Counted from the first letter of the stretch, positions 242 through 35,400 are shown. The stretch is 64,000 nucleotides of DNA from Nemertoderma westbladi (GCA_032718475.1 JAUCBJ010008848.1:36395-100394), one strand, 5' to 3'. Numbers and translations are program-made. Notes: generated by a model from the sequence alone, not told the origin.

Positions 242-322
242 GACGGCTACTAGAGGGTGCACAACAGATGTTAAATGTGAGGATACTTAGAGGTTTTCGT
301 TGGCCTTTGGCTCAACTTCGCT

Positions 323-2438: not shown

Positions 2439-3323
2439 CTTGCGGCAAGCGTTTGTCCATGATCGTGTCAGGTTGAATATCTGGTCGACATAAGCATTAG
2501 TGACGTCACCGGGTAAGGTATAGGTATAGTGTGGAGACTTGGTAGGCCCGCGGGCCTTCCGATGAGTGTCTCCCTTTGTGCAATGGGATTGTCTGGGTCC
2601 ACAAGTACTCTCTTGGTCTCCAGTATCTTACCTTTATCATCAGCACTCGATGGGTTGACCTGTAATAGTGGTTTCAACTCTACGGAATTGGCGTGTTTCT
2701 GTGGACTTGTACGTCTCCTAACTTGGGTCACACATTTAGCCATGGGCTGTAAGTCAGTTATTTTCCTTGAGCATAGTGTGATCCCTGTATTTATAATTTG
2801 ATGGGCACCACCCATATTTGCAATACCTGTAGTGACACCATTGTCTTGGTGACTCAAATAAGTCAAAGTAGGTAAGTTTTACCAACTTACCTATTTTGGT
2901 GGTCAATACTAGGCCTCTCCAGGGGGGTAATTGCGCTGTTATAGTATACATCATCACATTCTGGTAGAATGTCTGGTAAGTGGTCTGGTTGACAGTCCGG
3001 TGAGATGTCTGGTGAGCAGTCTGGTGAGACGTCTGGTGAAACACATCGCGGAACATCCAGCGAAGTGTTCAGTCGTACATCCGGTAGAATGTCTCATAAC
3101 GTCTGGCAGAATGTCTGGTCTAAAATCTGGTTGACAGTCTGGCGAGATGTCTGGTGGAAAGTCCGGTTGACAGTCTGGCGAGATGTCTGGTCGAAAGTCT
3201 GGGAATAAATCCAACGAAATGTCTGGTGGAAAATCTGGTGAGATGTCTGGTAGACAATTGGTCGAAAGATCCAGAAAGCATCGGTCAGAAAGGCATCTGG
3301 CGATGGGTCTGTAGAATAATCTG

Positions 3324-3919
3324 TGTGAGCTGATTCAATTCCGCCTCATTACCCTCATAAGTTAGGACAGTGGCACCTTTTTCAGCAATATTGGAGATAC
3401 GAGATTGGTAACAACCAATCTCGTATCACAACCAATAACGGGGACAACACAAACCCCAAAACCACACAAAGGGAGGTTAGAGGTCAAACCACCTTAGAAG
3501 GGAAAATAACCAACAGGGGCCAACAGAGGGGGAAGCACTCCCAGAGAGGTGAGAGGCGTGAAGTAGGTTATCAGCCAATAGGAGTGGGGGAAAGGATCCA
3601 CTGGACAAAGGCCACAGTAATGTAGGAATGATTAGATATATTATCAATGTGTTGAGATACCAATTCAGTTATTCAGTCATTAGTTTGAGTGCAGACCGGT
3701 GACATCTTACACCGTCACCGTCACTACATATCATCAATATCCTACCTACCGCTACACTGCTATTGTCAATAACATCATATTAACTGTGCTATTACTTACT
3801 ATTCATTTATCGACATATTATCAATCGAACATCAAGACGATAACAACAAACTTTATTTCAATACCACACGGTGACGCGTAGTCTGAACAAACCGGTCGGG
3901 ATCCCTTGATCCCATCGCA
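3324..3919 (+). repeat. 5' LTR of element C
   Basis: TGTGAG...CCCATCGCA, matches 56882-57474; TATA-like TATATT and Inr-like TCAGT inside. Confidence 0.9.
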
Positions 3920-13292: not shown

Positions 13293-14391
13293 ATGGTGAT
13301 TCACCACGTGTCACAATACCTAAATTTAATAAATTGTCAAATTCTTGTCGTGCTGCTTGTAATTTAGTACCAAATAAACGTCGGGGTTTTGAACTTTGAG
13401 GTGGTCCTGTCGTTGTAATATAATGTTTAACTGTATGTTTTATAGGCTCAGACACTGGTTTGTCAGTAAACACTTCATTATATTGCACTAATAAATTGTC
13501 AACCTTGTGAATCAAGCACACTTGTGGTTTAGTTTCATTGATTATACATGGTATATAAGTCAACTTCTGGGTATTATAAAAAATGCCTCATTTCGTGCCG
13601 TTGCGTTGGCAACAGCAGCAACATTTACAAACAACATAGATACACAAAATATAAATAAACACTTTGAAAATAAAAGTAGGTTTAGTAAGGCAAGTTGCTA
13701 AAATAGATAATAAGGTAAATAAGCACAGCACAATAAATCTGGTAGGCAATGAAAAATAGTTCCTGGCGTTATTTAATATATTGCTACCAACTCCATTTGA
13801 AGATTTATCCGTATCTTCATTATGGAAAAAATGAGCTGCATTAACATTTGCTTAAAAATCTTATAGTGAAATAATCCATCACCGCTCCATGAAAACAGTA
13901 AGTAAGACTGTTTTCACCAATCGAGATATAAACTATTTACAAAATATTTCTAAGTCTAATGGTGGGACCTAAAATATAAAAATAATCACTACCTAATTAT
14001 TGCATACTTAATATTGCAGGTACGGCGTAAATACAATCTATCATACATACAAAATACAAATTTACCAATTAACTTTAGTGCATAAAATACAAAAAAAGCT
14101 TTCGGTTATCAAGATAAGCAAATTAAACAAATCAGAACAAATCAAAACAAATAATTTCAAACTTTCAACAATCTTCATATATTGCAAATATACATAATAA
14201 ACTTCACCAAATTAAATCAGTCCAAATATAAAACAAACATAATGCGCTAATAACTTTCAAATAAGTCTTAAAGTGTCCTCCTGACGATCTTAAAAGTTCG
14301 TCCTGCTGGTCTGGATATCTTCTCCTGAGCACTAATCGCTAACGGTAGGCTCGCAAGCCTTCCTTCTCTATCTCGCTCCTCCAAAACCAAC

Positions 14392-14490
14392 GTCCAATAT
14401 AAATACCCAAATATAATATCCAAATATAAATATCCAATATAAATATCCAATATAAATATCCAAATATAATATCCAAATATAATATCCAAT
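14392..14490. repeat. (CCAAATATAATAT)-like minisatellite in the A 3' UTR
   Basis: About 7 imperfect 12-14 bp units lying between two GGTAGGCTCGCAAGCCTTCC motifs. Confidence 0.85.
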
Positions 14491-14613
14491 CGGTAGGCTC
14501 GCAAGCCTTCCTTCCTTCATCTTGCTATCCTATTCCTTAGCCGAACGGGCTCGTCCACGCCCTCTAATACGATTGGGTGGTGGTCGGGATCGAACTGGAC
14601 TCGGACTTCGGTG

Positions 14614-17600
14614 TCAAGCTGTCGGTGGTTCCAAAACGCTAGGAAAGGGGACGACGGGAGTTGCGTACATCCGTCGTGCGCTCAGTCCTCTAAATCCTCG
14701 TCCGATTCCAATCGTTGGCTTAACATCGGATCGAGTCTCCACAACGCTAGGAGGAAGTCGAAAGGGTGGGACTGTTCCGTCCGCTGACACCTCGCTCTCT
14801 GATGTAGTCTGAATTCTAATGGGTTCCGGCAAAGCATATCCTGTCCCTCCGCGTGGTTCTCTAGCGAGGGAAACCGTGCCCCGAGTCATCCGGATTTGCG
14901 ACTTCGATGTCGTCCTCTCGGCGACATTTACTATCTTCTTTATCTCTTGTCCGGCCTTCTGGGCTCTAAGTATATGAAGTTGCGGATCTTCCTGTGGGTG
15001 TCGAGTCTTTTCGGCTAACGGCGTGGCCTTGAAGCCAGTCTCACGCAGAACGTCCGCCTCATCTAAAATACACGAGGTTACGCGTTTGTGATAAAATGCG
15101 CTCCGGTATGCCCAAGCTATAGAATGCCAGGCTCCTCGATTCCGCTGTTCGACTCGAAATTTGTCAAATTCCCCGGCGGTAATCTTGTTCACCACAGTTT
15201 GAAAGTTCCATGTGTTCTTATTGTCGGGGTGTACCTGTAGGAAGTAGTCCCGAACAACCTTAAATCCGCTATCCAAAGGCAATATATCCAGCACCTCCAA
15301 GAGTTCATCGTATTGAGGCATAGCTGACACGTATCCTTCTTTCGACATTATGAGAGGGTTTACGGCCCAAAATCCCAAGTGTGCTCTCATAGGGAAACGG
15401 CGTCGCTGTGTCGATACATGCTCGTCTGCTAGATTCTCCCAATGGTCGAATAGCTGTCGAATGATTTTAACTGACATATGCTCATAGGGGATGTCCCTAA
15501 GTTGACACTCTGATGCCCTATGACCTTTAATGTTACAATACATGCACTGCGCCACGAAATGCCAGCAAGTGTAGAAAGTGTGCAAACGTTGATCCCCACA
15601 CCAGTTACATACTAGGTCCGGTAGAGATATATGTTTCGCTCCGCATTTCTTTGCGGGCCAGTTGCCCCGCATCTGCCACAAATTGTGTTGGCAGGGTACC
15701 AAACTCGCTCATAGATGAGATCTCCGATGGGGCGAGCGCTACCGTCCACGTGATAATTCTCATCATACGGGTCAGTCAGTATGTTCGTCTCCGTAGGTTG
15801 TGCACAAACCATGGCATCGCTTTTCTCCAACTCGCGTATCTCAGTTCGCGTCTTCCTCGGAAGGTTCTCCTCTATCTCTATGAGTTGCCGCAATGGTTTG
15901 TCTATTATCGCAAACTCGGTTGGACCCACATCATCATGATGGGCGGTAGGCTCACGAGCCTTCCAGGATCCTTCCGGGCCTTTGAATTCCGCGTGGCGTT
16001 CCCCATCGTAGGGTAGTAACGTCAACATCGACGGTCTGTCGACTAGGCTTCCCGTGTGAGTGAGATAGACGTCCCTGAAAACGCTAAGTCCCGCTCGCGT
16101 GAAAACTTCGCAGTGCGCATCGGTGTTATAAAAGGGTTGGAGAAATCGGCGGAATACATCAGTATGCATCCTTTCTCCGTCGTAAAAGGTATGTCCTTCA
16201 CCGAGACATAACGGATGTCGCTTTAAAGTCCTAGACACTACATCGGCGATGAAGCAAACGTTTACCGAAGATTCTATCGCCAAATAGTATTGCAAGATTA
16301 TTCGTGGAGGTGAGATAATCGCCCAGTACACACAACCTCGCCACTTCAACTGTGACTCAAACTCGTTTACGCCGGGCGTATCTCACTCATCGTATACGTC
16401 CGTGTATTTGCTCCTCTTGCTCTCCTTATAATCCCAACTAAACATTAGGTATGAGATATAACCCGTTCCAGTTTTTAGCGTGTTATACTCCCTGAAATAT
16501 CCTTGCTCAATAGCCCAAAGCAACAATGGTCTAGTATCCACGTATGCCGTAGGCAATCGATCCTCCTCCATGGGCATTCCTGCGAAATCGATAATAAGGT
16601 CATCCCGTACACCGGATCCGATCTTGACGATACTTTTATCAAGTACAACGTCTCGTACGGACGGCCTTTGGTAACATCCTAGCTTCTATGCTACAAGCCA
16701 GGTCCATGGATTTAACTATCCGTTTTATCATCGGCATAGGCATCTTTCTGTCGCTCCTCTGTCGGCTGAAGACATGTAACACGCCATCTGGTGCTCGAAT
16801 CTGTATGGTCTTTGAAGTGAGGCTTTGCTGATGGCTTCCTCCTTCATTATCGTAAAACATATAACCATTCTCCTTCAGAGATCGGCTAGTTGCGTCCCAA
16901 TCGTTGAGTAAATCGTCGGTAGGGTTCCAAATTCTCCCTATTGACTTTTCATCGTCGAAACTAATAGGTTTTCCTGTCCAATTGGTCGCAATATCGGTGT
17001 GGGTCTCAAACGTGCCGACTCCGATCCATAATCGAATCGTTTTCGTCAGATATCCTCGCAAGATGCAAGGTGCGATATCCGTCCCCGCGCGATCCACTTC
17101 CTTAAAGTCCATAATATGTGGAGGCACATTGCGTACGATTTTCTGTACTATCGTCCTACGCAACTCTAACAGACTGACTCTAACACATCACCAAAGGTAA
17201 CCGATGGGAGGAAATCCAGGTTCGAAATGATCTCCGGGTGTTCAACTATAGGAATCTCATAAGTTGTCTCCTCTCGGGTCGGTATACTAATAGGAAAGCT
17301 GGTTGGTCTCGCGACTGGTACTATCGCTTTAGTAGGACGGGGTTGAGGTTCTTGCGTCATCTCGACGTAAGGTATCTGTAGTCTCTGCGACAAATGCTGA
17401 GCAAAGGTGATACTATCGAAGAGCTTGGGTGTCATCTCCTTAGGTTCGGTTTGATTGTGGGATATCTATGGGGATATGCACTGAGCATATGAGAATATGA
17501 GGTGGAGAAATATCAACATAAATCACGATCATATAATGTAGAATAGAATGTATGAGGAATACAATGCGGTACACACAACGATAGTGCGGCAGTGTTCGAC

Positions 17601-20545
17601 AGAGTCCCGAGTCCAGACCTGTGTCCTTGAAGGACCCCTACAGCAGTACAGTACAGAGACAGTATATGCCAGTATGCCAGATAAGCAGAGCACTAGGCTA
17701 TGGGCTGCATAGCGCGCGTAGCAGTAGTCTGACTGTGACGTCATTGCGTGTCACGCGGGTATCTCTAGGTATAAGCAGCGCGGGCTGCGTCCGCGTAGTA
17801 GATGCGTACAGTATATCATCACACCCCCTTCTAGGTTATCAGTGGAAGTGAATAAACTACCCAAGTCTATAGTCTGTTGGGTGGGCGTCTGTGACGTCGA
17901 GGGTAGGTGCGCTGTGGTGAGGAGCGCGCAGGGATTAGTGTTTCGCTGGTGAGCGGTGTCGCCCAGCGAATGCCTTTGGGTGAGCCAGACTCGGTGGTGT
18001 CATCATTCCTTTGTGTCCCAGTGGCAGCGTTTAGTGGTGTACCAGCGGTGGTTGTCCCCTGGAGACCCATTGGTAGTGTCCCGTGTTGTCCCAGCATTGG
18101 TGTCCCGTCGTGTTGTCCCGGTGGCGGTGTCCCTTAGGAGGTGGCGACGGTTACGGGTGAGGCAATGGCCGGACATTGTACGGATGCGATAGCTGCGATG
18201 GGAAGCTTCCTCGGCCACGACCCCGGTGCGATCCCAACGCTTTGTGGTCGGGTTCTGGATCCGCACAGGGTCCCCCACTGTGAGAGTGGGAAGTGGTTTG
18301 GCCCCACGGTTATAATAGGACGCCTGTGATGTCATCAGCGGTGGCACAGCGGTGTCTAGCGCTGTCCGTGTCGCTTGATGGTCGGCGTTGAAGGCCCTGC
18401 TGTGCATGGGCACCCGCGAGCGTATGGGGTGTCCAAACAGGATTTGGGCTGGTGATAAACCAGGGACTGTGTGGCGTCGAGGAGCGCGCAGTAGTCGCGG
18501 TAGTCCCGGGCCGTCTCGCAGAGCAAGTTGAGGGCGAGGTCCGCGAAGTTGTCAGTGGGCTCCGAACCCTCCGTAATGGCCGCAACCGTTGCTATGGTAA
18601 CCGCGTGGAGATGGTAGGCCATCTCGCCATCGTCGATCAGGTCGTCGGGGGACGGATCATCGACGGGTGCACGGGATAACGCGTCAGGAATGCGGTGCTC
18701 CTTTCCTTTCCTCCATACCATTGTGAAGGAGTAAGGAGTGAGTTTCGACTTAAGCCGCTGGAGGCGTGTGTTATCCGTGGAGTCGATCGTGTATCGATCG
18801 AGGATTGTCACCAGTGGTTGGTGGTCGACAATGAGAGTGAAGTTGGGGAGGACCAGTAGGTAAAGTCTACATTTGTGGGCAGCCCAGGCAACGGCGAGCA
18901 GTTCGAGCTCCACCATCGCATAGCGCGACTCGGTTTCGGTGATAAACCGCGATCCGCACTCCACTAATCTCTAGTTGTCGTCATGGCGCTGGAGTAGCGC
19001 GTACCCGAGTCCGTTCTTCCGGGAAGCATCGGTCTCGAGTTTAGTCTCACGTTCCGACTCGAAGGGAGCGAGAACTGGGGGCGAGAGAAGCAAGAGTTTT
19101 GTTCTCTCGAAAGCCGCCTTGTGGTCGGAGGTCCAGAGGAAGGAGTTTCGCGAACTGAGGAGGGGGCGGAGGGGCGACATTGTAGAGGAAATGTCGGCCG
19201 AAAACGGGGTGAGTTGTTCGACGAGTCCGACGAAACTCCGCAGGTCGGTTATGTTTGTCGGCCGCGGGAAACTCGCGATGGCCCGGAGCTTTGCCGGGTC
19301 GGCCCATATCCCGTCAGCCCCGACAAGGTAGCCCGCGAACTTGACTTCGCGCTGGGTGAACTGGACCTTGTCGGGATACAGGGAGATGCCTGCCTCGCGA
19401 CAGCGCTGGAGGAAGCACCGAACACTGGCGAGGTGCTCGTCGAGAGAGTTGTTGTACAATAGGACGTCGTCGACGAGTTTAGTGAGGTTTGGCAGGTCCC
19501 GGAGGGCATCGTCGCCCCGCCGGTTGTACTCGTCCCCGCTTGAGATGAGTCCCATAACACTCCGACAGTGTTTGTAACGGCCCCAAGGCGTCACAAAGGT
19601 GGTGAGGGGTTGGGTTTCCTTCTCGAGGGGTACCTGCCAGTAGCCGGAAGCCGTGTCGAAGGCAGAGAAGAACTTCGCCAAAGTAAGGTAAGCAGCGCGG
19701 GCTGCGTCCGCGTAGTAGATGCGTACAGTATATCATCACAATATCCAGTAAAATGGTAGGCTCGCGAGCCTTCCGCCAAACTCCTCGATCTCGCCTTTCT
19801 CGTACGCCTCGTACGCCCTGTAGAGGCTCAAAGCTTCCCGTTTCTCTTGTGTCGACTTATTAGACTCGTCCACTACCATATTGTAGATGTCTGGTTCGAC
19901 TAATTTGGGTTCGTAAATAACGATCTCACCCACGTTCGGTGCACTCATCTTGAACGAATGGTACGGATTTGTCAAAGGGTATCCGCCTTCTTGGTAACGC
20001 AGACTTTGGTGGTATGAGCATCGTGCTAATATCGGCTCGGGGTTCTCCGAGTTCAATCGCATAGGAATCGCGTTGTCTTGCTCGCGCATACATGCTCCAC
20101 ATTTGTAAAACAGTTTATATATGGAGAACGCGTCCTTTGTCTCTGGATCCGCTCCTGGAGCGCGTCTATAAAGATGCGTTCCATCAAATTCGTCTCTGGC
20201 TGCAGGCAAGGGTTCGTTTGCCGTCAAACATTGCAGCGTATGATATAATCGGCGTATCTCCGTGTCTGGATCCTTGCAAATGTCACTGGCGTCGCATAAT
20301 GCATCGTAGGGATACAAGGCATTGAACTCCCCGCGTAATTCCTCCGCTCTTTTGTTATAAGTGTCCAATCGCTGTTTTGTAATATTCAGGTCCGCCTTGG
20401 ATTTAGCGAGCTTGGCTGTACTCCTAGCCATACTCTCCACTCCAAACACGCTAAAGTTTTTAGCTCCATAACAATTAAACGGCGCCTGGTGCTCCTGTTC
20501 CTGCATAAACCCCTGACGTAACTCCTTATAAATCTTCTCCGCCAT
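14614..20545 (-). pseudogene. Element A accessory ORF: N-terminal domain + DEDDy-like 3'-5' exonuclease + Zn knuckles (disrupted)
   Basis: ORFs 19736-20545, 17166-17435, 16639-17163, 16383-16577, 15612-16349 and 14614-15702 join after removing element E, a 14-bp and a 4-bp duplication, one TGA and one small frameshift. Motifs ISFDDE, LPKAVRDVVLDKSIVKIGSGVRDD, YYLAIE, CMYCNIKGHRASEC. Confidence 0.8.
17467..19740 (-). mobile_element. pol: Internally deleted GC-rich Ty3/Gypsy element E (Mag-like; RT C-terminus, RNase H, IN tail)
   Basis: TSD ATATC (17462-17466, 19741-19745); 3' LTR ~17467-17824 with PPT AAGGGGG; 52 nt of 5' LTR at 19689-19740; FDTASGYWQV, LVDD, ETDAS, YAMVELELLAV, DHQPL. Confidence 0.9.
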
Positions 20546-20582
20546 TATACACGCGTATATATGGTTACATATCGTTACGTTT

Positions 20583-20614
20583 CTACTAGATGAAGCACAA
20601 AATAGAGGTTAGAT
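20583..20614 (-). promoter_or_regulatory. Putative splice acceptor upstream of the A accessory ORF
   Basis: Minus strand CTAAC-CTCTATTTTGTGCTTCATC-TAG; the equivalent TTAAC-ATCTGTTGTGCACCCTC-TAG is retained in A' at ~250-274. Confidence 0.5.
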
Positions 20615-20697
20615 GTGAGGAGACTTAGAGTTTGTCGGCTTTTGGCTCAACTTTGCTCTAAAACGTACAAAACAAAAAACGTACTACGTAGAACAAG

Positions 20698-21865
20698 TGT
20701 TCGCGCTTTTGAAGACCTTTAGCAGTTTAACCTGCCAAAATTTATATGTCTTTTAGTTAATTAAAACACCCTTAGCATACGACAATATTTTATGCTAATA
20801 AACAAAACATTAACCGAAGCCAGCCCATGCGCGATCATTCACCCGATGGATACACCCGGGAGGCTGAATTCGGCTGCTTAAATTTTATTATTGCAGTGTA
20901 AGGTTGCAGTGTAAACCTACTGTATTATTCGATTGATCACTAATAATTAATTTCTGACAGATATTATTGGCTTTTGGGAAATATTAACAGTTCCTTTAGG
21001 ACGTGGCGCTCTATCTATTTAAACAGAGCTAGGACTTATACTAAACGCAACGATACTGCTTATGATTAAAGTATAAGGCGCATTCTTTAGGAAATGCTTT
21101 GTTACCAATCACAATCATGCACACTATTCTGCCGACCGTCAGTAAATTTGATCACACATAAAGAGAGCAGCAATTGACTCATGTAGGGTCTGCTAAATAA
21201 CATTAGATTCAATACACACCACATTGATATAAATCGCAATTGTTATATATAGCCTGTCTCTCTAACCTGTAGTGTATCAAGAAAATTGGGAAATTTGGGT
21301 GATTTATCCGTATTCTCCAAAGGGCAATATTTCATCAACAAATAGATACAATTAATAACTGACGGTAAATAACAGTACAAACAATATGATTAATAGTGAG
21401 TTAATTAGATCAGTTAGATTAGATAACAGTTATACTTTCGATAATTTAAGCAGTTTTACTAGAGTTGTTCCAAAAGCCGGTGTTATGGCGAAATATGGGA
21501 ACACAACAACAGAAACATGTGACTACTTGACTATACGAGGACACCAACTACCCTTATTCCCCGAAGCTCCCGTCCAACACAGAGGATGAGCATACAGATA
21601 GGAAATTCAGTTCAGTAGCTCTGGGATAGGTCAAAATCAACGCCCACTCAAATTCTATTGGCCGATACGGACAGCAGGGCTGAGGCAACCTCCCTAAGCT
21701 GGTTGGCCGATCGAACAGAACCCAGATACCTTCGTACAGCACATCAGCCAATAAGCTGGTAGCTTGCACTATTTTAGCTATAGATCCCTTTTAGAGTATT
21801 CTAGCGACCGGGGGGGAACTGGCCAGCAAGGCAAACGAATCAGTTATCCCACAAAAGCTTTTACA
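20698..21865 (-). repeat. 3' LTR of B
   Basis: Direct repeat of 35401-36568. Confidence 0.97.
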
Positions 21866-21943
21866 CCGCTCCCAGAAAATGGGATTTAAGTCTATAAAAT
21901 ATACAAAATCACAGTTTCTAAAATATAAAAATACTCTAAACAG

Positions 21944-23392
21944 TTAGTCTTTCTTGCGCGGACGGCGTTTACGCAGTTTTTTAAAGCTAGCAAGAGTCCT
22001 TTTCTCTTTGGGGCGAGCCACTTTACGAGGAGGGCTATAACTCCTGGGTGAAGGGTGCAATATGATTGCATCAGAAGGTATGGGATTGCGATCGGTGTAT
22101 CCGCCGGTCGAAGTACCGGGTTGATTGACATCAACGTCCGGGGAGAGGGGTCTAACGGCTTTGAGAGCTCGTTTCAAGACAGCCGCTCTTACGGGTCCTT
22201 TACGAGTGGTCTGAACGAGGGCCGTGGGTGGACCATAGGCAGTTAGAAACTTCCTTGGTTTAATGGTTCTTTCCAACTCGCGTTCGCGGGCTCGGTACTC
22301 GTAAGGCCGTCGATATACTTCTTGTAACTCAGGGTGTGAGTTGACGAATAAGTCTCCATAGGCAGGGTCTTGACGGATAAAGTTTATTAAGTTGTAAGAA
22401 TGGATGTCACTCGGATTAATGCTCCTGAGAAATTTACGTACATATTTGGTTGAAATACATTCTCCAACGCGCTTCAGTAGTTCATAACTTGATATGCGTG
22501 ATTTCTGCTCGACGGAGGCAAACAAATAAGGATGGAACGCATAAACTCCTTCGTAAGCGCGTCCAGGGTAATAGCGATGGCGTGAATCACAATGTAAATC
22601 AGCGTTCGCTTCCCAAGCTCTGATATAACGTAGTACAATCATTTCATCTACGCTCTCTAAATCATGATTAAAGGGACAATCAAAGCTGGCGTGTCCTTTT
22701 AATTGACAATGGTGACATTGAGTCATAAATTGAGGGCAAACCGCAAAAATGTGCAAGTTATTGAGTCTGTAATACGCGCAATAAATTTCCATCGTCGGTT
22801 GTTCGTGGAAATAGGAACAGCGGACGTTTGTGTCCATGGGCGTAACATGGTCTCTCGATGCGCATAACCGACAACATTGCCGAGAAACATAGTTGGCATG
22901 GCGATAATCGTACGCAGTGAGACACTGTGGACCTTGATACCATTCTAGGAGGTAATCGTTGTCGTTGTTCCGGGCGCGATAGGCTGAATCTCCTCAGATT
23001 CTAGGCATATTGGTTCGTCTTCCCAGTCTGTTACGAATATAATTTTCGTGATCTATTCTCGGTTTATCGTTACGACTCCGCTGGGTATGATATTTAAATA
23101 GAACCATTTCCCTTTCGGTGTATACATCGTCCGTATCATGTAAATCGATAGGATGGCTGGTAGTTAGGAAGTCCATATACGTACCATTACGATGCGTATA
23201 GCGAGCGGTTAATTTTCGATAGTCCAATTCACGCGTAAGTTGCTCTTGGGACGTCGGCGGTTCGATATAACGACCATCGTCCTCCGTAATGGTTGGATCG
23301 GCTTCACCGCGTATCAAGCTATCCACAAATGCTTGTAAAGGTAGAGTATATCGTTCCCTGATACCAAGATCATCTTCTATTAATTCCGTCAT
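21944..23392 (-). pseudogene. Element B accessory Zn-knuckle ORF (~482 codons, one internal TGA)
   Basis: ORFs 22994-23392 and 21944-22837 are in the same frame with an open 52-codon linker; CRLCASRDH, CHHCQLKGHASFDC; basic C-terminus. Confidence 0.8.
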
Positions 23393-25042
23393 ATCTGCTA
23401 TCTGAGTTTATTAATATTAGTATGAGTCAATATTTAGGCAAGTGGGCGTCGCTGCCTACTAGTCTTTGCCCCCGGACAGTGGGTTTCTCAGCGCCGATGT
23501 ACTGTTGTCGCGGTGTTTACGCCAACATGTAGCAACAGCACGACAACGATAACCGGCACAAGTCCCACCACTGTCCGTCCCAAAGGCTTGAATCCACTTG
23601 AGGTTATCTCGGTAGAGTTAGGGCTACTTTACAATTGCGATTAGCTACTGTAAACACACTTTAGTAGTAACATTCACTTATAAACGCACAAATTCCATAC
23701 AATCATTACTTACTGCACACATGCAGGCCATTTGTCCGTTAGTCAGTGTCTTCCAGAATGTCACGTTATTACTATGTATCCTTGGATACATAGTAATTAA
23801 GGAAATATTATTAAGAAAGATTATAGGAAATAAGAGTATACTCTTATGCTACGCAATGGGGCAAGCTTTTTGTTGTTCCTTTAACTTGCTTCTAATTCTA
23901 GCGTGGGTGTTGCCATGGTGACATTATGGAAAACTAGCGGTAGAATTAGGGTAATTCTCATGCATACAGATCTGGGATGTTATTTAATAGTAATTCTTTA
24001 ATTGTCAATATCCTCTTTATGCATGATTTTATAAATTTTATCGGCTATTGACTATATGCTGGAGATTCTCGCACTTTAATACACTCAATATGAATCTCCG
24101 CTCCCATGATCTATTAATTACTGGAATTTTGGGAATGTTATAAATTGCACAAAATGACAATTTATGAAATTCATTTGAATATGAATTTAAATTTATTCCC
24201 GTGAATTTTATTATTTGATGTTAAAATTGACACAATTTGATTCCAGAGCAGGTCTGGGGGCATAGGATCCTTAATTCTATGACAATTGTCTTTTAAGAGT
24301 ATCGGTAAGTGCTGCGATATCTTAATTGACTAGAAATTTAAAGGATCTGAATTTTACAGATTTTACTAAATATTAAATTAATATTTAAGATGGGCACCGA
24401 TTTATTCCAGAACTTGTCTGGGGACGTTAACCACTGATTCTAGAATTTGTCTTTCAAGTATATCGGTGGGTGCCGCGATATCTTAATCGACTAGAATTAC
24501 AGATGGTCAAAGTTTAACAGATTTATTTGCGTTTTACGCTACTGTTATATGGACATCACGCTACTATATGTATTATTTAATATAAGGTAGAAGAGCAATA
24601 TCGCACGAAGCAATGTCAGTGTGAAGAGGCAAGTCGTTTCCAAGGTCTACCCAGAGCTTGGTTTAGCCGAGACACGAGGATCTGAACTTTGCATTCCTAA
24701 TACTCTGCCTACCAATAATACTTGAATATAGTAGTGGCTTTATTGTACTTTAAGAAGTACGGACATTTCATCTTACTGTAGTCACGTATTTATAATATGA
24801 TACGGACAGTAAGGAAAGAGAAAAAATTATTTCTCGCCGTCGCACTAAATATATATTATAAGTAATTACGTACGTAATAAACACTAATATATTGCACTAA
24901 TCTACTAAATAATCACTAAAAATAACATTCTACTAAATAAAATTGAATAAAAACGATTATAATAAAGTACATAATAAAGTTTGCATATAAAGATATAACA
25001 AAATAGATAAAATAATATAGTCATACACCCACTCCAGACGTA

Positions 25043-28000
25043 TCACGTTTGGGAGTCCCTAGATGTTTGAGGAATTAGGGAGGTGGTCGTGGGAAGAGTG
25101 TCCTGTCTTCCATAGTTTCCAGAGAGTTCTCTGTCTCTTTCCAGTAAACATAAACGACCAACTGGGCGATTGAGTTGTTGCGTCTCAAAGATTATACCGG
25201 GCTTCTTGAAGTTACGCCGCATAACGATGAGTTCTACTGAACGCACTAAACCATCCTCCGAAATATGGGTCTCGATGATACGACCTGTCTGCCACCGTTT
25301 ACGTGGGAGGTCTGGATCTACAATAAGTACCATATCTCCGGCGCTGACGTTTTCCTGCTGCGCAAACCACTTAGTTCGAAGTTGTAGCGTGGGCAGGTAA
25401 TGTTTCTCGAAATGGTCAGCGAAACGACGGGATAGCAACTGCATAAGTTGCCAAGTTCGACGGCAGTATTCGTCTCCGTCGGCAATCTCCGATCGTGGGA
25501 GCATGGCTACCGGTTTCTTCAGTAGGAAGTGCGCAGGTGTTAGCGCTTCCAGGGAATCGGGACTCGATGAGACTGGCATAAGCGGTCTCTCGTTGAGATA
25601 GGCAGCTATTTCCTCCATTAACGTCCGCAAAAGTTCGTCGGTGAGATACGCACGGCATGGCACTATAAAGTGAAATGCGGTCCTTAACACTTCTAATTAA
25701 TCTCTCCCAACTTCCTCCCCACCAAGGGGCGTCGGCGGCGTTGAAGGTCCAGCTAGACGCTGTTATCCTTAGCTGGTCATCCACCTGTCTTTGGTTCCAG
25801 TCTTTTACGTAAGCCTGTATTTCGTTGTTGGCACCAATGAAGTTCGTTCCCTTGTCCGATCTCATGGTATTACTCGTACCGAAGCGAGCGATCTGTCGTC
25901 GTAAACTTAAGACGAAACTGTTGGTAGATAGATCGTTCACCATATCGAGATGGATGGCTCTGCAAGTCATGCACACGAAGATGACACACCATCTCTTGAC
26001 TATAGTCCTCGCACGATATACTTCAATAGGGCCAAATAAATCTACACCAGTATTAGTAAAAGGTGGTTCATAGAAGCTTACTCGTTCCCTAGGTAATTCT
26101 GCCTCTCGCTGTGTTAAAGGCCTACTGAATGTTTTCCTACAGGGTATGCAGTTCCTAAGAACTTGGTTCAGAGCCCTACGGGGTTTATCAAAATAATAGC
26201 GAGTTCGAATTTCGCTAAGAACTCGTTCTCTTCCAGCATGATAAAGCTTACTGTGAACATCTACAATCATCTTGATTTGTACTTCAAGATTTCTAATGAG
26301 TATGGGGAATTTAGTGTCAAAGGATAAGGGTGCATTGGTTAACCTTCCTCCAACACGTATTAACCCATCTATCATTGTGCTAGAGAATCGATCCCTTAAG
26401 CGCATCTGCGGATTTCTCAACAACAGGAAATACTTTTCGGAATCCTCATAGCATTGCAGGAGTCTCAGTATCTGTTTATTAGTCTCTTCATGCTCCTGGT
26501 GACTAATTTTCTCCTTTAGAAAACTGTCAGATATCTTATATTTAGGTAAGTTTTTAATAACATGAACTTGTGCAGATGTCAATGGAGCGTTATCACTGGT
26601 GGTCTTCGCCCTGGAGTATTGATGATGAAAGCATCTCTTTAAATATGTGACGGCTTTACAGAGCCGATTCCAGGAACTGTAGTGATGCATCGCTCTCTGC
26701 AGCAGGGGTGAGATTCCTTGCGAGACGTCTGGTATTCCAGATTTCCAATCTCTATCTCGAATTTCCGCAACAGACTTATTTATAGCGAGGGATTGTGGAT
26801 CCAAATCATCGTTTCCGGAAACATGTAATACAGATAGATCGATAGTCGGTTTAAATAACTTCGATTTACTCGCCCGGGTTTTAGGTTTGACGGTCTCCGC
26901 TCCCTTGGCTTGTCTAATTTCCGCCGTAGTAAGGTGAGGAGGCCATTCGTCCTCTTCCATGCTCAGGAAGTCGGGTCCACCCAACCAATCTGGAGTATCT
27001 ATCAGTTCCTGTGGAGTTGCTCCCCTGGAGGCGATATCGGCTGGATTAATCGTACCAGGGCAATGTCTCCATTGATCTATCTTTGTGCGACTAAGAATAA
27101 TAGCTACCCTGTTAGTAACAAAAACGCTGAACTGACAGACTTCATTGGTTAGATATTCCAACACGAGTAAAGCGTCGGTCCAATAAACCGTTTTCTCCAG
27201 TGGGTAATCGATTTGTTCCGTTACGTTCCGGCCGATGGCTGTAGCGTATAAAGCCACTTTTAACTCCGCTCGAGGAACCTTTAACTTGTTGTTAATCAGT
27301 GCCTTAGAGGTAACCAAGGCGACTTTGATCCCATCCGGAGTTTCGACTCGCAGATATGCTATTATACCTATTCCCATGTCGCTGGCGTCTCCAAACACAT
27401 GGAGTTGATAGGAATACGTCGGAAGAACGTGTCCAAAATATGCACGGGAAATGATAAAGTTCTCGATGGCAGGTAGAGAATCTTCCCATTTCATCCATTT
27501 CTTCAACAGTTCTCCCTTAAGCGGATCATCCCATGAGTGGTTTTCAAGCCACATCTGTTCTACTAAACTCCGAGCAATCAATATAACTGGGCTAATAAAT
27601 CCCAATGGGTCGAAATAAGTGCTCAGGATACTTAAACAAATCCGTTTGGTCCGGACTGGATTATCTCGCTGTTTTAGCTGAAAAAACAGGATGTCTCTTT
27701 CAGTGTCCGACTTCAAGCCTAGCGTCTTGGTTTCAGGAAGATCGTCCTTTATTAAGTCTAGGTCTTTCGCTCCGCGATCCTCTACCGGTATGGCTTCCAG
27801 AAACTCACGGGAGTTACTAGTGAATTTCGTCAGTCGAAATCCACCTCTTTTCAAACACTCTACCGTTCCTTTCGCGACAGCTATGGCTTCTTCTACTGAT
27901 GGAAGGGACCTTAAATTGTCGTCCATGTATATATTGCGTTTTATGTTGTCTATCACTTCTTTGGAGAAGGAGTCTCGGTTGTCATTCGCAGTGGTTCGCA

Positions 28001-29486
28001 CCACGGAGCAGGCGTTGGAAGGGCTAGATATGATCCCAAAACCCTGGATGGTCATCCAGTACTCTACCGGTTTCTGGTTGAGGTCTCCTTCATGCCACCA
28101 CAGAAATCTCAGGCTGTCTCTATCTCTCTCCAGTGCCTTGACTTGTAAGAACATTCCTTCGATATCGGAAGCGAACGCGATGGAATATTGTCTTAATCTC
28201 AAAAGTATTCCCAACAAAGATTGGAGTAAATTGGGTCCTGGTAACAACTCGGAATTAAGGGATTGGCCCATATATAGAGCAGAGCCATCGAATACGACTC
28301 GTACTTCATGGGGCTTACCGGGTTTGGGAACGTAATGATGTGTTAAGTAATACGTTCTCTCAGTCACTGGTGTTCCTTCCGGTACTCGCTCCGCGTATCC
28401 CTTTGTTATAAATTTCTTAAGCTGAGTTTGGTACATTTCTTTCGCTGAAGCATTAGCTGTAAGGCGTCGATGTAATTGAGCGATTCTTTTCTCGGCCAAG
28501 AGTCTGTTATTTATAAATCTAGGTTCTCGTTTTCGAAATGGCAGGCCGATTTCATACCTACCTTGATCTTTTAAAAAACGTGTAGTTGTTTCCTGGATTT
28601 GCTTGGCTCTTTCTTCTTCTATCGATAGAGCCTTATCATACGAATTGGGCTCTACAAGTTCCTGAGTAAAGAATCGTACGGCTAGTTCGTCCCGAGTTCT
28701 AGCGTTGTAGCGATCTACCTCGTCATTAAGTTCGTCATCATAAATAATGGATTCCGTTGGGTGAATCAGTTGACATAGGTTCGCTTGGTTTTCCCAAGTT
28801 TGATTCTCGGTAAGTAGGTCAATTGTGTTCTCTTCTTCGAAGAGTTGGTAGATGTCGTCATTATCTGAGGAGTATGGTGTTCCCTCAGTTAGTTCGTCCA
28901 CCTCACTGCTCTCCTCGCTCCAATCGCTCACATGATCTACTCGTACTTGTGGCATTCTCTCTTCGAGAGTCCTGCGGGAAGGGCCAGTAAAGTACCAACC
29001 TACTCTAGTTCTTACCGCATAGGTTTGCAGTGGCTGCGGTTGAGCAGGTCGTTTCTCTAATGTTTCGAGCGCCTCATGCGCGTTTTGGCCGATGAGGATT
29101 TGCACTCCAGGATAATCTGTCTGGAACCGAGGTATCTTAAGATGTTGGATGCTCTCATCTTCGTCCCAATTATAAAGGTCTGCTTGAGTAGTAGCGAAGT
29201 TCTTTATAGCCACCATTTTTACCGACCTTATACCTTGTGTTCCTAACTTATCCTGGGGAGTGGACAACACACCTAAGTAGTAATCTGCCGTTAGGGTAGA
29301 TTTCCAAACCTGCATAATTCCTGACATATTCAATTTAGTCCGGAACTTGGGTTGTCCAGCAAAAATATCTTCGGCTAGTTCTTGATCGATGAATGTTCCT
29401 GTGCTGCCGGAGTCAAGGAGGGCGTTCACTATGTAGCTTTTGTTAAGACCGTGAACTCTTACCTGAACTACAGGAAATTCTCTGAT
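25043..29486 (-). CDS. pol: B pol: aspartic protease, RT, RNase H, integrase (frameshift near 25690)
   Basis: ALLDSGS, VRVVFDGS, DIEGMFLQV, YMDD, LHVFGDAS, NPADIASRG, GVDLFGP, SDKGTNF, WGGSWERL, LNERPL. Confidence 0.95.
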
Positions 29487-32400
29487 TCATACGTTGGAAG
29501 TTGGCGTTTTCCAAGATGGTTGTTTGTCAAAAATAGTTAGGGGAAACTCATTGTTGGTGTCCTTTTCATAAGTAAGTGCTCGATACACGGCGGTATTGAT
29601 TAGATAACAGGATTCGTTGGCGTCGGAGAATTCGTCAGTATAGAATCCTTCCATCTCAGACTCCTGATCAGTGTCGTTTACATCACTGAATTGGACATGT
29701 AGTTCGGACTCACTTACCTGACTCTGCTTGTCTCGTTCGAACTCACTATGTAACAAGATGTGATGTTTCGCACCACACTTTTCACACTTTATGTCGGAGT
29801 AACAGGTTCGCCGTTGGTGTCCTGGTCTGAGGCAATTATAACATAACCGCTTGTCCCACACAACTGTACGTCTGTCTACAAGGGATTTCTTTAGAAATTC
29901 CGCACACGCACTCAAACGGTGGGTCCCGTCGCACAGCGCACAGTTAGGTTTTATGTTACTTACTTTACCTTGGGTAATCTGATGCACTCTCGTTCTTTCT
30001 TCGGGCTTTCTTCCGCGCATTCTGCTAGGAGACTGAGGAGGGGTCTTAGCAACCTGTTCTCTCCTATTGTTGGTTCGAGCCTTGTATTTACTTACGTCCT
30101 TGGAGGTTTTGTCAACATAGTAAGATCGTTCGGTGTCTTTCCCGCTGTCTTCTTCTTGAGAAGCTTGGCTTTCGCCGTCGTCAGTGTAACACACAGGTGT
30201 TACTCTTCTCCTAGAAGTGGGTTTCTCACTTACCTTATTTTCCGATGTTTTCTCTCTGGACTGCTTGATGAGTTGTAGTTTTACTTCACCATCTAAGAAA
30301 GACATGAGATCAGCCATGGTAGGACTTCGTCGTTGTTGTTCATTCATGTACAACACTTTCTTGTCCCAGCGTGTACATACTCCACCCTTTGGTAAAGTAG
30401 AGACTACGGCTCCAATAACCATGGAACTCTGATATTCATGCGACTTACCTAACCAGTCCAGTTGTCTACAGATCTCTTGAATCTCATCGGAAAACTCTAT
30501 AATCCCGCTACTAAGGAAGTGTCGAGGGGCCACTAATTTCGCATACAAATACTTAGCTATGTTATCCTTGTTACCATACCTGATGTTTAATGTATCCCAA
30601 ACTTGTCTTAATCCATCTGGATGTCCAATAAACTTTAACGCCATTAACTTGGGAGGTCCTTCCAAGCACTTGATGAGGAATCTAAGTTTCTCTCCGTTAG
30701 ATAGTACAGAGTTCTGTATGCTATCTTTGTAATATTCGTTGAAAGGTAACCATTTCATCTCATCTCCATTGAATTTGACGATCTCTCCCACTTTGACCGC
30801 TTGGCGGGCTTCTGTTCTAGCCATCTGACGCGTAAAGCTTTCTTGGGCCATCGTGTTATTTAATATCGAATTATCGGTATATAAATTTCTCGGATCATTA
30901 TCAGGTCTATAGGGAATATCATTAATAACAGGTCTATAATCACCCTTAATAGGGTTTGCTATAGGAGTTTCTACTTCACTAGCAGTATAGATGCGTGTAG
31001 GCTCCACACCTTGCGCATGTAATACTTCAGACCTAACAGGTTGACACAATGTTACAGGGGGTATTGGTATGCCCTTTTGGATATTGACTAATTTGTCGCG
31101 TTCTAGTGCGATACTTTGCTGCACTTCTTGCAACTCTGCTCTACCTTCCCTCACTGTTCCCTTAAGTTGGTGGACAGTCTCCTGCATCTGTCCTAGCAGG
31201 AGATTCATCCCCCGCCGTCCCTCCTCTACCCACTCAACCGCCGAAGCGGGAGTCGCCAACATTGTAGCGGGCTGACGCGGGACGACGGGAGACAAATCTT
31301 TGATTCCTCTCTCAATGCTCAGGACAGGGGTATTTGCATGGACTGTTCCACCGGGTACAGGCAGTGTGGTACTATGTAAAGGGAATTTAGAGTTAAGCTC
31401 TGGAAGTGCAGGGGTCTCTAGCACAGAAGTGACTTTGGGAACGACAGGCCTAATTATTTCAGGTTCATCGACTATAGTAGGGAGTCTTTTGACCTGGATA
31501 AATTGTTCTATGGGTTCTGCACTACCTAAGTCTGTGCTAGTTAGCTGTCTTTTAACAGCTGGGGGCAAATCAGGCAATTTGCGACGGTAAGATGTTTTTC
31601 TACGCCTACTTAGATGAGATCTATTTCCTCCGCCTTCAGGATCGGTGGTCTCGCCTTCCTCCGAGGATGTGTATCCCTGGCGCTTGGGAGTAGATTTTCT
31701 CATCATCTGCATTTGATTAGCAGTAAACTGTTTATTTATACTGTCTTGTGTCTCTTGCAGATTTTCCAACTCCAGTTGGATAGTCTCCTCAGAAGCTCTC
31801 CGTTCTGCTTCTGCCACTGCTGCTTTTCTTTCTGCTTCTGCTTCTGCTTCTGCCGCCTTTCTTTCGGCTTCTGCTTTTGCCGTCTTTCTTTCGGCTTCTG
31901 CTTCTGCCACCTTTCTTTCGGCTTCTGCTTCTGCCGACTTTCTTTCGGCTTCTGCTTCTGCCGCCTTTCTTTCGGCTTCTGCTTCTGCCGCTGCTGCTGC
32001 TGCCACCTTTCTTTTCTCTATCCGTTCTTTCTTTACTTGTTCTTCTCGGACTCTAGTGAGGCGGAGTTTTTCATCACAATCAGCTTGGTTTGCAGCTAAC
32101 ATTTCGGCATCGATTGAGTCCAACACAAGCTTGGTTCCTTCACTATTAGGGGAAAGTCCAGACAGCCGTCTCCTCAACTCTTCGTCTCCTAGGAATCGCT
32201 GATAGTCGGACAGATAAATGTCGATAGCGTCTCTAGTTCGCGGTTTCTCGGCGGTCTCTTCGCTTTCCGCTTGAGAAAGGGTGACATCAGTTGGGTCTTT
32301 ATAAGTTAGTCTCTCAGACAGCTGGGATTTCCACTGGTCCGTTTCTTGCACTTTGCGACCTACTCGCTGGAACCAAGTCTTAACAGAAACCTGCAGCGAC

Positions 32401-33179
32401 GTGTCCTGTCTTCTTTTGGAAGTTTCCTCAAAGGCTGATAGGATTATTCTAATACGTATGGTTCTTTCGCGTACTTGATAAAGCAGCTCTTCCTGCTCTT
32501 GAGGTCCTTGAGGTTGTCGAAACAGTTGTTCTTCTAATCGCTCTAAGGAGCCGAAGAACCCTTGCACATATCCTGCTGCCGACCTCTTCCAAACAGCTGG
32601 ATCCATTGTATCTTTAGTCACTCCCATCCGGTGTATATCCTCCCAAGTAGCTTCGGACAGATCTAACGGGAGTCCAGGTCCGGGAAAGTTCCATTGTGAC
32701 TCGACAATAGACATCAATTCTTCCCTGGCGTATCCCGCATAATTATCTTGGGTCGCTTTCTTATTCCTCGCCCAATCTGCTTGATGTTCCTCCACCGCAA
32801 TCAATATAGTGGTTAGCACTGCGACAGGAAGGGTGAGAAGAGGGTCCGAGTAGGCTGTAGCCGCCATCTGCAATCCGCGTTCGGGGGTCAGCTCGACAGT
32901 ATCTGAACTACTGGAGCTATCGGATCGCTGGGAACTAGTTTCTTGACTAGGCTGTTGCTGCTGTGGGACAGCTGCTTCCTGGTTCCGTTTGACTTGGGCC
33001 CGAGTACCTATGATGGACCTATGGTGGATTAGCTTAGGGTCTGATACTACTGGAGGGGTGACCTTTCTTGCAGTAGGAGGTGAACTGAACTCCTTTCTTA
33101 ATCGCTCTACACTCCTATCTGTGTCACAGATGGTTGTATCGATTAGACTGTCTGACAGGTTTTGCTGAGTGTCAGACAT
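29487..33179 (-). CDS. gag: B gag (coiled-coil AEAERK repeats, DUF1759-like capsid, three Zn knuckles)
   Basis: 1230 aa ORF; KFNGDEMKWLPF, EKLRFLIKCL, CALCDGTHRLSAC, CYNCLRPGHQRRTC, CEKCGAKHHILLH. Confidence 0.95.
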   Translation of the reverse strand: MSDTQQNLSDSLIDTTICDTDRSVERLRKEFSSPPTARKVTPPVVSDPKLIHHRSIIGTRAQVKRNQEAAVPQQQQPSQETSSQRSDSSSSSDTVELTPERGLQMAATAYSDPLLTLPVAVLTTILIAVEEHQADWARNKKATQDNYAGYAREELMSIVESQWNFPGPGLPLDLSEATWEDIHRMGVTKDTMDPAVWKRSAAGYVQGFFGSLERLEEQLFRQPQGPQEQEELLYQVRERTIRIRIILSAFEETSKRRQDTSLQVSVKTWFQRVGRKVQETDQWKSQLSERLTYKDPTDVTLSQAESEETAEKPRTRDAIDIYLSDYQRFLGDEELRRRLSGLSPNSEGTKLVLDSIDAEMLAANQADCDEKLRLTRVREEQVKKERIEKRKVAAAAAAEAEAERKAAEAEAERKSAEAEAERKVAEAEAERKTAKAEAERKAAEAEAEAERKAAVAEAERRASEETIQLELENLQETQDSINKQFTANQMQMMRKSTPKRQGYTSSEEGETTDPEGGGNRSHLSRRRKTSYRRKLPDLPPAVKRQLTSTDLGSAEPIEQFIQVKRLPTIVDEPEIIRPVVPKVTSVLETPALPELNSKFPLHSTTLPVPGGTVHANTPVLSIERGIKDLSPVVPRQPATMLATPASAVEWVEEGRRGMNLLLGQMQETVHQLKGTVREGRAELQEVQQSIALERDKLVNIQKGIPIPPVTLCQPVRSEVLHAQGVEPTRIYTASEVETPIANPIKGDYRPVINDIPYRPDNDPRNLYTDNSILNNTMAQESFTRQMARTEARQAVKVGEIVKFNGDEMKWLPFNEYYKDSIQNSVLSNGEKLRFLIKCLEGPPKLMALKFIGHPDGLRQVWDTLNIRYGNKDNIAKYLYAKLVAPRHFLSSGIIEFSDEIQEICRQLDWLGKSHEYQSSMVIGAVVSTLPKGGVCTRWDKKVLYMNEQQRRSPTMADLMSFLDGEVKLQLIKQSREKTSENKVSEKPTSRRRVTPVCYTDDGESQASQEEDSGKDTERSYYVDKTSKDVSKYKARTNNRREQVAKTPPQSPSRMRGRKPEERTRVHQITQGKVSNIKPNCALCDGTHRLSACAEFLKKSLVDRRTVVWDKRLCYNCLRPGHQRRTCYSDIKCEKCGAKHHILLHSEFERDKQSQVSESELHVQFSDVNDTDQESEMEGFYTDEFSDANESCYLINTAVYRALTYEKDTNNEFPLTIFDKQPSWKTPTSNV

Positions 33180-35389: not shown

Positions 35390-35400
35390 ATAACTGTTAT
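35390..35400 (-). promoter_or_regulatory. Non-tRNA primer-binding site of B (ATAACAGTTAT)
   Basis: Abuts the 5' LTR; exactly complementary to the minus-strand LTR sequence at 36126-36136. Confidence 0.65.

What the first reader, a model, noticed from the sequence alone, without database searches (positions are those of the whole stretch)
14614..20545. BEL/Pao element carrying a large accessory gene with a DEDDy-like 3'-5' exonuclease and Zn knuckles in the env position
Seen: six ORF fragments rejoin. Removing E gives ...FYWI|SHNQTEPKEMTPKLF, removing a 14-bp duplication at ~17170 gives VLE|LRRT, and removing a 4-bp duplication at ~16660 gives LPKAVRDVVLDKSIVKIGSGVRDDL. The ~1200-codon product has ExoI-like ISFDDE, TIQI..LHVF, ExoII-like KIGSGVRDD, YVDT and ExoIII-like W...QYYLAIE, then three Cys/His knuckles. 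Established: this layout matches RNase D/WRN/Mut-7/EXD DEDDy nucleases, several of which act in small-RNA silencing; I recall DEDDy accessory ORFs reported in bdelloid rotifer retroelements. Inference: a captured anti-silencing factor, or a primer/RNA-processing enzyme. The ExoIII Asp is Glu here, so activity is uncertain.
Basis: partly seen in the sequence, partly recalled or inferred. Interest (0 to 1): 0.88.

Follow-up and report, generated by a model that had tools for sequence, protein, structure and literature searches.

The report
BEL retrotransposon extra gene plus repeated hairpins
A jumping gene (BEL/Pao retrotransposon) carries a large extra gene where an envelope gene normally sits, likely a worn 3'-5' exonuclease-like domain joined to zinc knuckles, and the same element repeats one 20-letter hairpin eleven times along its length, which would give that protein a way to recognise its own RNA.

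Summary
The gene is real; the exonuclease label is plausible but unproven. The roughly 1,200-codon ORF lies after pol of an outer BEL/Pao element, once a second, nested BEL element (20698-36568) is set aside. It is broken in five places in this copy. Other copies cross those places unbroken, and selection keeps its protein sequence: pN 0.11 against pS 0.75 over 71 codons, and 31 of 40 listed differences in the exonuclease-like part are silent. Its Cys/His C-terminal domain is homologous to the shorter ORF3 of the nested BEL family (E 1e-16). No Pfam, PDB, homologue or fold search supports DEDDy. DEDDy profiles built here rank the ExoII-like frame first among the window's frames, but only at E about 1, and the other motifs add nothing above chance (my estimate for DEDDy descent: 0.6). 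New here: a 20-nt hairpin or near-palindrome occurs at 15 sites, all on the sense strand, 11 in the outer element and 4 in two sibling copies, in all three reading phases, none by chance. Best reading (inferred): ORF3 binds the element's own RNA at these hairpins. DEDDy ORF3s are known from rotifer gypsy-like elements; I found none reported for BEL/Pao.

The parts
44671..47783 (-). gag of the outer BEL/Pao element (broken), with DUF1759; Gag knuckles follow at 44629 and 44572
   Evidence: Pfam DUF1759 E 1.3e-9; knuckles
36987..44634 (-). pol of the outer element (protease, RT, RNase H, integrase; broken, with small insertions)
   Evidence: Peptidase_A17 E 6e-39, DUF5641 E 8e-20; integrase alignment
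20698..36568 (-). nested, younger BEL/Pao element inserted in the spacer between the outer pol and ORF3; LTRs 35401-36568 and 20698-21865
   Evidence: LTRs 1168 bp, 99.7% identical; same 5-bp flank on both sides; DUF1759, Peptidase_A17, DUF5641
21944..23407 (-). short ORF3 of the nested element (two frames split by a stop), homologous to the C-terminal part of the long ORF3
   Evidence: BLASTP 25% over 148 aa, E 1e-16
19741..20545 (-). ORF3 piece 1, N-terminal 268 codons, no known family
   Evidence: no Pfam, PHROG or NCBIfam hit; 82% amino-acid identity over 73 codons to the sibling copy at 8-238, pN 0.11, pS 0.75 over 71 codons
17467..19740 (-). inserted, internally deleted Ty3/gypsy-type element that splits ORF3
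   Evidence: RVT_1 E 4e-17, RT_RNaseH E 3e-14; joint across it in 4 of 4 runs
17172..17461 (-). ORF3 piece 2, Pro/Thr/Glu-rich linker; frameshift near 17160-17175
16661..17158 (-). ORF3 piece 3, with ExoI-like D-x-E (16956, 16950) and the TIQIR strand; frameshift near 16660
   Evidence: alone not above chance
16386..16656 (-). ORF3 piece 4, ExoII-like block (KIGSGVRDDL) and YVDT; ends at an in-frame stop (16383-16385)
   Evidence: ranks 1 of 329 window frames with 2 of 3 DEDDy HMMs, E 0.66-1.2; 1 of 171 by hhalign, probability 3%
15660..16382 (-). ORF3 piece 5, ExoIII-like W...Y-x3-E (Glu at 16274-16272), a further domain, start of the first knuckle; frameshift near 15655
   Evidence: ExoIII block not recovered by the motif chain
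14614..15655 (-). ORF3 piece 6, two Cys/His knuckles, a helical domain shared with the nested element's ORF3, basic Pro-rich tail
   Evidence: zf-CCHC E 0.047, below cut-off
14344..47139 (-). eleven copies of the 20-nt hairpin/near-palindrome GGAAGGCTYGYGAGCCTACC along the outer element, starting (minus strand) at 47139, 46066, 43494, 43416, 43338, 39401, 36622, 19774, 15964, 14511, 14363
8..3919 (-). sibling BEL copy (about 80% identical pol) with the same order pol, spacer, ORF3 start, and one hairpin at 2541-2560
57476..62246 (-). second sibling copy (gag and part of pol, 74-80% identical) with hairpins at 59697, 59790, 60894

Best explanation
The ORF is a selected third gene of a BEL/Pao family that carries zinc knuckles and likely a diverged DEDDy (WRN/Mut-7/EXD-type) exonuclease-like domain, and it likely works by loading onto the element's own RNA at the repeated 20-nt hairpins, which would protect that RNA from host small-RNA silencing or decay and route it for packaging. 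Shown: place after pol, purifying selection, knuckles, no membrane segment, the repeated sense-strand hairpin restricted to this family. Inferred: DEDDy descent (about 0.6); that the part absent from the short ORF3 (N-terminus plus exonuclease-like domain) reads the hairpin while the knuckles add single-strand contacts (about 0.35); catalytic activity (about 0.3 if DEDDy, since the ExoIII position holds Glu and all motif spacings are long); the anti-silencing outcome.
For: Two subfamilies share pol-spacer-ORF3 order. pN 0.11 against pS 0.75 over 71 codons. 31 of 40 listed family differences in 16240-16990 are silent, against 21-32% expected. The ExoII frame ranks first in the window by two methods. 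The hairpin: 15 sites, 0 in 100 shuffles, all best matched on the sense strand, three reading phases, 18-20 of 20 letters kept at three matching places in sibling copies. It occurs with the long ORF3 and not with the short one. Analogues: T. brucei RND joins a DEDD domain to four CCHC fingers that hold the RNA (PMC7797062); Egalitarian's exonuclease-homology domain contacts RNA stem-loops without its catalytic residues (PMC13186709).
Against: No hit in Pfam, PHROGs, NCBIfam or PDB sequences for the exonuclease-like part. True DEDDy proteins score 69-148 in the same chain test. Without the ExoII block the score is at chance (168 of 300 shuffles reach it), and the three frames in the wrong order score 23.9, higher than the right order. 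hhalign probability is 3%. The nested element has the homologous knuckle domain but no dispersed motif, so the knuckles alone are unlikely to be the hairpin reader, and the link of hairpin to long ORF3 rests on two families. The one two-sided base change in the stem is a single event at one pair of matching sites. The outer element's LTRs were not found.
Confidence: 0.33

Rival explanations
1. The middle domain is not a nuclease at all: the motifs are a chance likeness, and ORF3 is a nucleic-acid-binding accessory protein of a new fold plus knuckles.
For: No library, homologue or fold support; the signal rests on one 21-residue block; each gap between motifs is about 25-35 residues longer than in the reference proteins.
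Against: That block is the best DEDDy match in the whole window by two methods, and all eight invariant reference positions but one (the Ala after Tyr) have a counterpart in the right order, with Glu for the last Asp.
Confidence: 0.27
2. ORF3 is an active DEDDy exonuclease with a housekeeping job in replication (trimming RNA or cDNA 3' ends, primer processing), and the hairpins are dispersed packaging signals read by Gag, unrelated to ORF3.
For: D-x-E and the ExoII Asp show no listed replacement among copies; this role was proposed for rotifer DEDDy ORF3s (PMC5408684); Gag has CCHC knuckles; dispersed packaging signals are known in RNA viruses (PMC6281560, listing only); the loop holds G-x-G, a knuckle-type target (recalled).
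Against: The ExoIII position is Glu, with no listed difference in other copies (29 of 69 rows hidden). Copies that lack most of ORF3 exist (joint 14660-19983 in 3 of 4 runs), which fits any trans-acting role. Other BEL elements here, with the same Gag type, lack such a motif.
Confidence: 0.22
3. The 20-mer is a double-stranded DNA site (14-bp near-palindromic core) for a dimeric protein, either ORF3 acting on chromatin like plant VANC proteins or a host factor.
For: The core is a near-perfect palindrome and folds equally well on the other strand; VANC sites are family-specific and arrayed in one orientation (PMC5735166 section read).
Against: A symmetric DNA site gives no reason for the same orientation in 8 separate clusters (about 1 in 128 by chance, my arithmetic); 8 of the 11 sites are inside coding sequence, whereas VANC sites are mostly non-coding; CCHC knuckles usually bind single strands (recalled).
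Confidence: 0.13
4. The ORF belongs to another element or a host gene lying next to the BEL pol, not to the BEL element.
For: No LTR pair was found around the outer element.
Against: Two subfamilies have the same order and a matching spacer; the family-specific hairpin runs through gag, pol, spacer, ORF3 and the 3' region; the nested BEL holds a homologous ORF inside its own LTRs.
Confidence: 0.03

Closest known systems
DEDDy ORF3 of bdelloid rotifer Juno and Vesta LTR retrotransposons and Athena/Terminon elements (PMC5408684; PMC6431247)
   Same: An extra ORF after pol in place of env, with DEDDy-like motifs, an altered catalytic set (DEED there), no membrane segment, activity unshown.
   Different: There the match was strong by HHpred and the carriers are not BEL/Pao; here the carrier is BEL/Pao, the ORF is about 1,200 codons with C-terminal knuckles, and the match is weak. 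Sequences could not be compared.
Trypanosoma brucei RND (PMC7797062; PDB 7c42/7c45 seen)
   Same: Proposed layout: DEDD domain followed by several CCHC fingers that hold RNA.
   Different: A cellular mitochondrial enzyme with intact DEDD; no sequence match to ORF3.
Egalitarian ExoHD (PMC13186709); EXD1 and Maelstrom pseudo-nucleases (named in PMC5408684)
   Same: An exonuclease-homology domain used to bind RNA stem-loops without catalysis.
   Different: Host proteins with other partner domains; their RNA signals lack a fixed sequence, while this hairpin is nearly invariant.
VANDAL/VANC anti-silencing system of Arabidopsis (PMC5735166)
   Same: An element-encoded extra gene plus a short family-specific motif repeated in one orientation along the element.
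   Different: DNA transposon in plants, 9-bp duplex DNA motif in non-coding regions; here an LTR retrotransposon, a 20-nt hairpin mostly inside coding sequence, binding untested.
BEL/Pao elements with env-like ORF3 (recalled)
   Same: Same gag-pol and same gene position.
   Different: No membrane segment here (highest 19-residue hydropathy 1.48).

Membership tests
BEL/Pao LTR retrotransposon (outer element) | Gag with DUF1759 and Cys/His knuckles | tested here: met
   DUF1759 E 1.3e-9; knuckles at 44629, 44572
BEL/Pao LTR retrotransposon (outer element) | Pol with Pao-type domains, integrase last | tested here: met
   Peptidase_A17 E 6e-39, DUF5641 E 8e-20; integrase 45% identical to the nested BEL
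BEL/Pao LTR retrotransposon (outer element) | Paired LTRs and target-site duplication | tested here: inconclusive
   No LTR pair found in the window; both ends run into other insertions
DEDDy exonucleases (RNase D/WRN/Mut-7/EXD) | Significant match to a family profile | tested here: not met
   No Pfam hit; own HMMs E 0.66-3.8; hhalign probability 2-3%
DEDDy exonucleases (RNase D/WRN/Mut-7/EXD) | ExoI D-x-E on a strand | tested here: inconclusive
   Letters present at 16956, 16950, 5.7 bits, not above chance
DEDDy exonucleases (RNase D/WRN/Mut-7/EXD) | ExoII block (l..p.i.KvG....D) | tested here: met
   17.5 bits, best in the window
DEDDy exonucleases (RNase D/WRN/Mut-7/EXD) | ExoIII Y-x3-D | tested here: not met
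   Y-x3-E at 16286-16272; the chain test chose another segment at a negative score
DEDDy exonucleases (RNase D/WRN/Mut-7/EXD) | RNase H-like fold | tested here: inconclusive
   Single-sequence models of two frames, pLDDT 39.7 and 30.7; no fold match
DEDDy exonucleases (RNase D/WRN/Mut-7/EXD) | Metal-dependent 3'-5' exonuclease activity | not testable with these tools
   needs an assay
Envelope (fusion) ORF3 | Transmembrane anchor | tested here: not met
   Highest 19-residue hydropathy 1.48 over all six frames
Rotifer-type DEDDy ORF3 | Sequence homology to Juno/Vesta/Athena DEDDy ORFs | not tested
VANC-type anti-silencing system | Family-specific short motif repeated in one orientation | tested here: met
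   15 sites, one orientation, only in this family
VANC-type anti-silencing system | Motifs mainly in non-coding regions | tested here: not met
   8 of 11 outer sites lie in coding frames
VANC-type anti-silencing system | The element's own protein binds the motif and lifts silencing | not testable with these tools
   needs binding and silencing assays

The most novel reading that the evidence does not exclude
An animal LTR retrotransposon has its own sequence-specific recognition system: a captured, repurposed DEDDy exonuclease fused to zinc knuckles reads a fixed 20-nt hairpin written at least eleven times into the element's own RNA, even inside coding sequence, and shields that RNA from small-RNA silencing, an RNA-level counterpart of the plant VANC system.
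Probability: 0.18. Interest if true: 0.88.

Novelty: new variant of a known kind. Interest (0 to 1): 0.62.

Why it matters
How transposons in animals resist piRNA-type silencing is largely open, and element-encoded anti-silencing proteins are well shown mainly in plants. Here a multi-copy BEL/Pao family offers both halves of a testable system in one sequence: a conserved extra protein with no known homologue and a fixed, family-specific hairpin. A binding assay between the two is cheap and decisive. Even if they are unrelated, the hairpin would be a clear case of dispersed cis signals written over coding sequence in an LTR retrotransposon, and the ORF3 a new accessory family shared by at least two distant BEL lineages.

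Tried and rejected
No whole genome was held. Word-based homologue searches of the exonuclease-like part found none among longer and near-length proteins; a third, spent on fetching long WRN-like reference proteins, also found none. A profile of the C-terminal domain against 1.84 billion representatives gave one hit, a repeat of gag-type CCHC knuckles (E 9e-5); the exonuclease-like part was not searched there. Scans of metagenome and viral contigs with single frames found no relative. Of 79 BEL loci from metagenomes, none matched any ORF3 frame; only 15 had 2.5 kb or more after the integrase, and their long ORFs were mostly gag or pol of a following element, so this is a weak test. The ESM Atlas gave no result. 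Single-sequence folds were too poor to use. No Rfam family in 13500-49000. No RNA holder listed. Four look-ups in earlier findings were empty. Rejected: that the adjacent gag-pol at 25043-33185 carries this ORF (its 3' LTR lies in between); that ORF3 is an envelope gene; that the outer Gag lacks knuckles and ORF3 replaces them. The paper search was swamped by coronavirus papers and says nothing.
Full report
Anatomy. The window is a pile of nested retroelements, here all on the minus strand. The BEL/Pao gag-pol just upstream of the finding (25043-33185) is closed by its own LTRs at 35401-36568 and 20698-21865 (1168 bp, 99.7% identical) with the same five letters on both flanks. It is therefore a young insertion. 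Setting it aside brings the pol of an older, outer BEL/Pao element (gag 47783-44671, pol 44634-36987; DUF1759, Peptidase_A17 and DUF5641 hits) next to a short spacer and the ORF that starts at 20545. A sibling copy at 8-3919, about 80% identical in pol, shows the same order of pol, spacer and ORF start. I could not find the outer element's LTRs.

The ORF. Six frames add up to about 1,208 codons. This copy is broken by a Ty3/gypsy-type insertion (17467-19740), frameshifts near 17170, 16660 and 15655, and an in-frame stop at 16383-16385. Contigs from 4 runs (3 samples, 3 studies) cover the whole ORF; 4550, 2633, 3274 and 158 contigs were laid, many 90-95% alike, which points to many diverged copies, though summed depth is no copy number. 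Contigs join across the insertion in 4 of 4 runs, no laid depth shows the stop, and contigs cross the 16660 break without it in 4 of 4 runs. So the ORF is a family feature, not a chance of this copy.

Selection. Between the outer copy and the sibling, 71 codons of the N-terminal part differ at 9, 9 and 37 first, second and third positions, pN 0.11 against pS 0.75. In 16240-16990, 31 of the 40 listed differences to other copies are third-position and silent, against 21% (all changes) or 32% (transitions) expected; 29 of 69 rows were not shown. The 24 near-fixed differences I took elsewhere in the ORF and at its stop codon (24 of the 40 rows shown, 764 in all) are only 6 of 24 silent, as expected for decay private to this copy. 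The protein was under purifying selection while the family spread.

C-terminal domain. Two complete knuckles (CX2CX5HX4C, CX2CX4HX4C) and a helical region match the shorter ORF3 of the nested BEL element, 25% over 148 aa, E 1e-16, although the two integrases are only 45% identical. A profile of the two found no homologue among 1.84 billion representatives, only one gag-type knuckle repeat. No frame has a membrane segment, so this is not env.

Is it a DEDDy exonuclease? Libraries say nothing. I fetched DEDDy reference proteins (RNase D, NrnC, WRN-like, Egalitarian-like, PolA) and built profiles. The frame with KIGSGVRDDL ranks 1 of 329 window frames with two of three HMMs and 4th with the third, at E 0.66-3.8, and 1 of 171 by hhalign at probability 3%, pairwise E 0.015; the ExoI frame ranks 15 and the ExoIII frame 87. 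Against this: real members score 69-148, the ExoIII block was not recovered, without the ExoII block 168 of 300 shuffles do as well, and the frames in the wrong order score 23.9. The gaps between motifs are each about 25-35 residues longer than in the references. Folds of two single frames had pLDDT 39.7 and 30.7 and no match. My estimate for DEDDy descent is 0.6. The ExoIII position is Glu with no listed difference in other copies, so it is probably a family trait, and catalysis is doubtful. The fold of the whole domain remains open.

The 20-mer GGAAGGCTYGYGAGCCTACC occurs at 15 places in the window with up to 3 mismatches, each best matched on the element's sense strand; 100 shuffles gave none. 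Eleven sites run along the outer element through gag, pol, spacer, ORF3 and the 3' region; four are in the two sibling copies; none is in the nested BEL or the other elements, in 201 fetched loci or in viral contigs. Eight of the eleven are inside reading frames, in all three phases (5, 2 and 1 sites; one of the two phase-1 sites lies near a break in gag and its phase is less sure), so the constraint is on the nucleic acid. At three matching places in siblings 20, 18 and 18 of 20 letters are kept, with flanks at 12-26 of 30. The motif folds into a 7-bp stem with an A-A mismatch and a YGYG loop; 98% of cells pair, and one pair changes on both sides, but at one pair of matching sites, so once. 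It folds as well on the other strand, so structure alone cannot tell RNA hairpin from DNA palindrome; the single orientation in 8 separate clusters favours a strand-specific role. No Rfam family matches. The nested BEL, with the short ORF3, has no such dispersed motif.

How it most likely works (inferred). ORF3 is made in trans, binds the element's RNA at the hairpins through the part that the short ORF3 lacks, and uses the knuckles for added single-strand contacts. Two known proteins show that each half is feasible: T. brucei RND holds RNA with CCHC fingers placed after a DEDD domain (PMC7797062, passages), and Egalitarian's exonuclease-homology domain contacts stem-loops without using its catalytic residues (PMC13186709, passages). 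The result would be a coated RNA that escapes small-RNA silencing or decay and is routed for packaging; trimming of guide RNAs is possible only if the domain is active. Rivals are a non-nuclease domain, a housekeeping exonuclease with Gag-read packaging hairpins, and a duplex DNA site of VANC type.

Known and new. DEDDy ORF3s are described for rotifer Juno and Vesta LTR elements and Athena elements, with a DEED motif and no shown activity (PMC5408684, parts 1-2 of 5 and passages; PMC6431247 and PMC6338049, passages). VANC proteins bind family-specific motifs arrayed in one orientation (PMC5735166, abstract and one section). Searches listed no paper, by title or abstract start, on a BEL/Pao ORF3 with exonuclease and knuckles or on a dispersed hairpin in a BEL element; the library lacks most subscription journals, Repbase reports and the supplements, which I did not see. 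Verdict: a real, selected, uncharacterised ORF3 in a BEL/Pao family, probably but not provably DEDDy-derived, with a family-specific repeated hairpin that makes its function testable. New variant of a known kind; interest 0.62.

Noticed in passing
window 14344-47139, 59697-60913, 2541-2560 (minus strand): The 20-nt hairpin GGAAGGCTYGYGAGCCTACC at 15 sites, only in the outer BEL family; taken up into the main report.
   Followed up: yes
window 21944-23407 (minus strand): The nested BEL element has its own env-position ORF3 with Cys/His knuckles and no exonuclease-like part; no known homologue apart from the long ORF3.
   Followed up: partly
window 14660-19983: Contigs in 3 of 4 runs join these places, so a deleted derivative that lacks most of ORF3 exists.
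   Followed up: no
window 4722-6717 and 48832-50829: A 2-kb repeat, 97.6% identical, lies upstream of the BEL coding region in two copies whose pol genes are only about 80% alike; its ends are not TG...CA. It may be part of an LTR or another element.
   Followed up: no
window 10553-10838, 38623-38880, 62342-62627: A 260-290 bp piece from the 3' end of a LINE (the one at 62381-63774) is inserted at two other places, like a SINE or truncated LINE.
   Followed up: no
window 50830-50930 (minus strand): A tRNA-like stretch that looks like the head of a SINE.
   Followed up: no
window 12400-13300: A gypsy RT region expanded into a complex tandem array of 29-, 77- and 193-nt units.
   Followed up: no
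L132, L153, L154, L166, L172: Metagenome BEL loci in which a second gag follows the integrase on the same strand within 1.5-3 kb, suggesting head-to-tail arrays.
   Followed up: no
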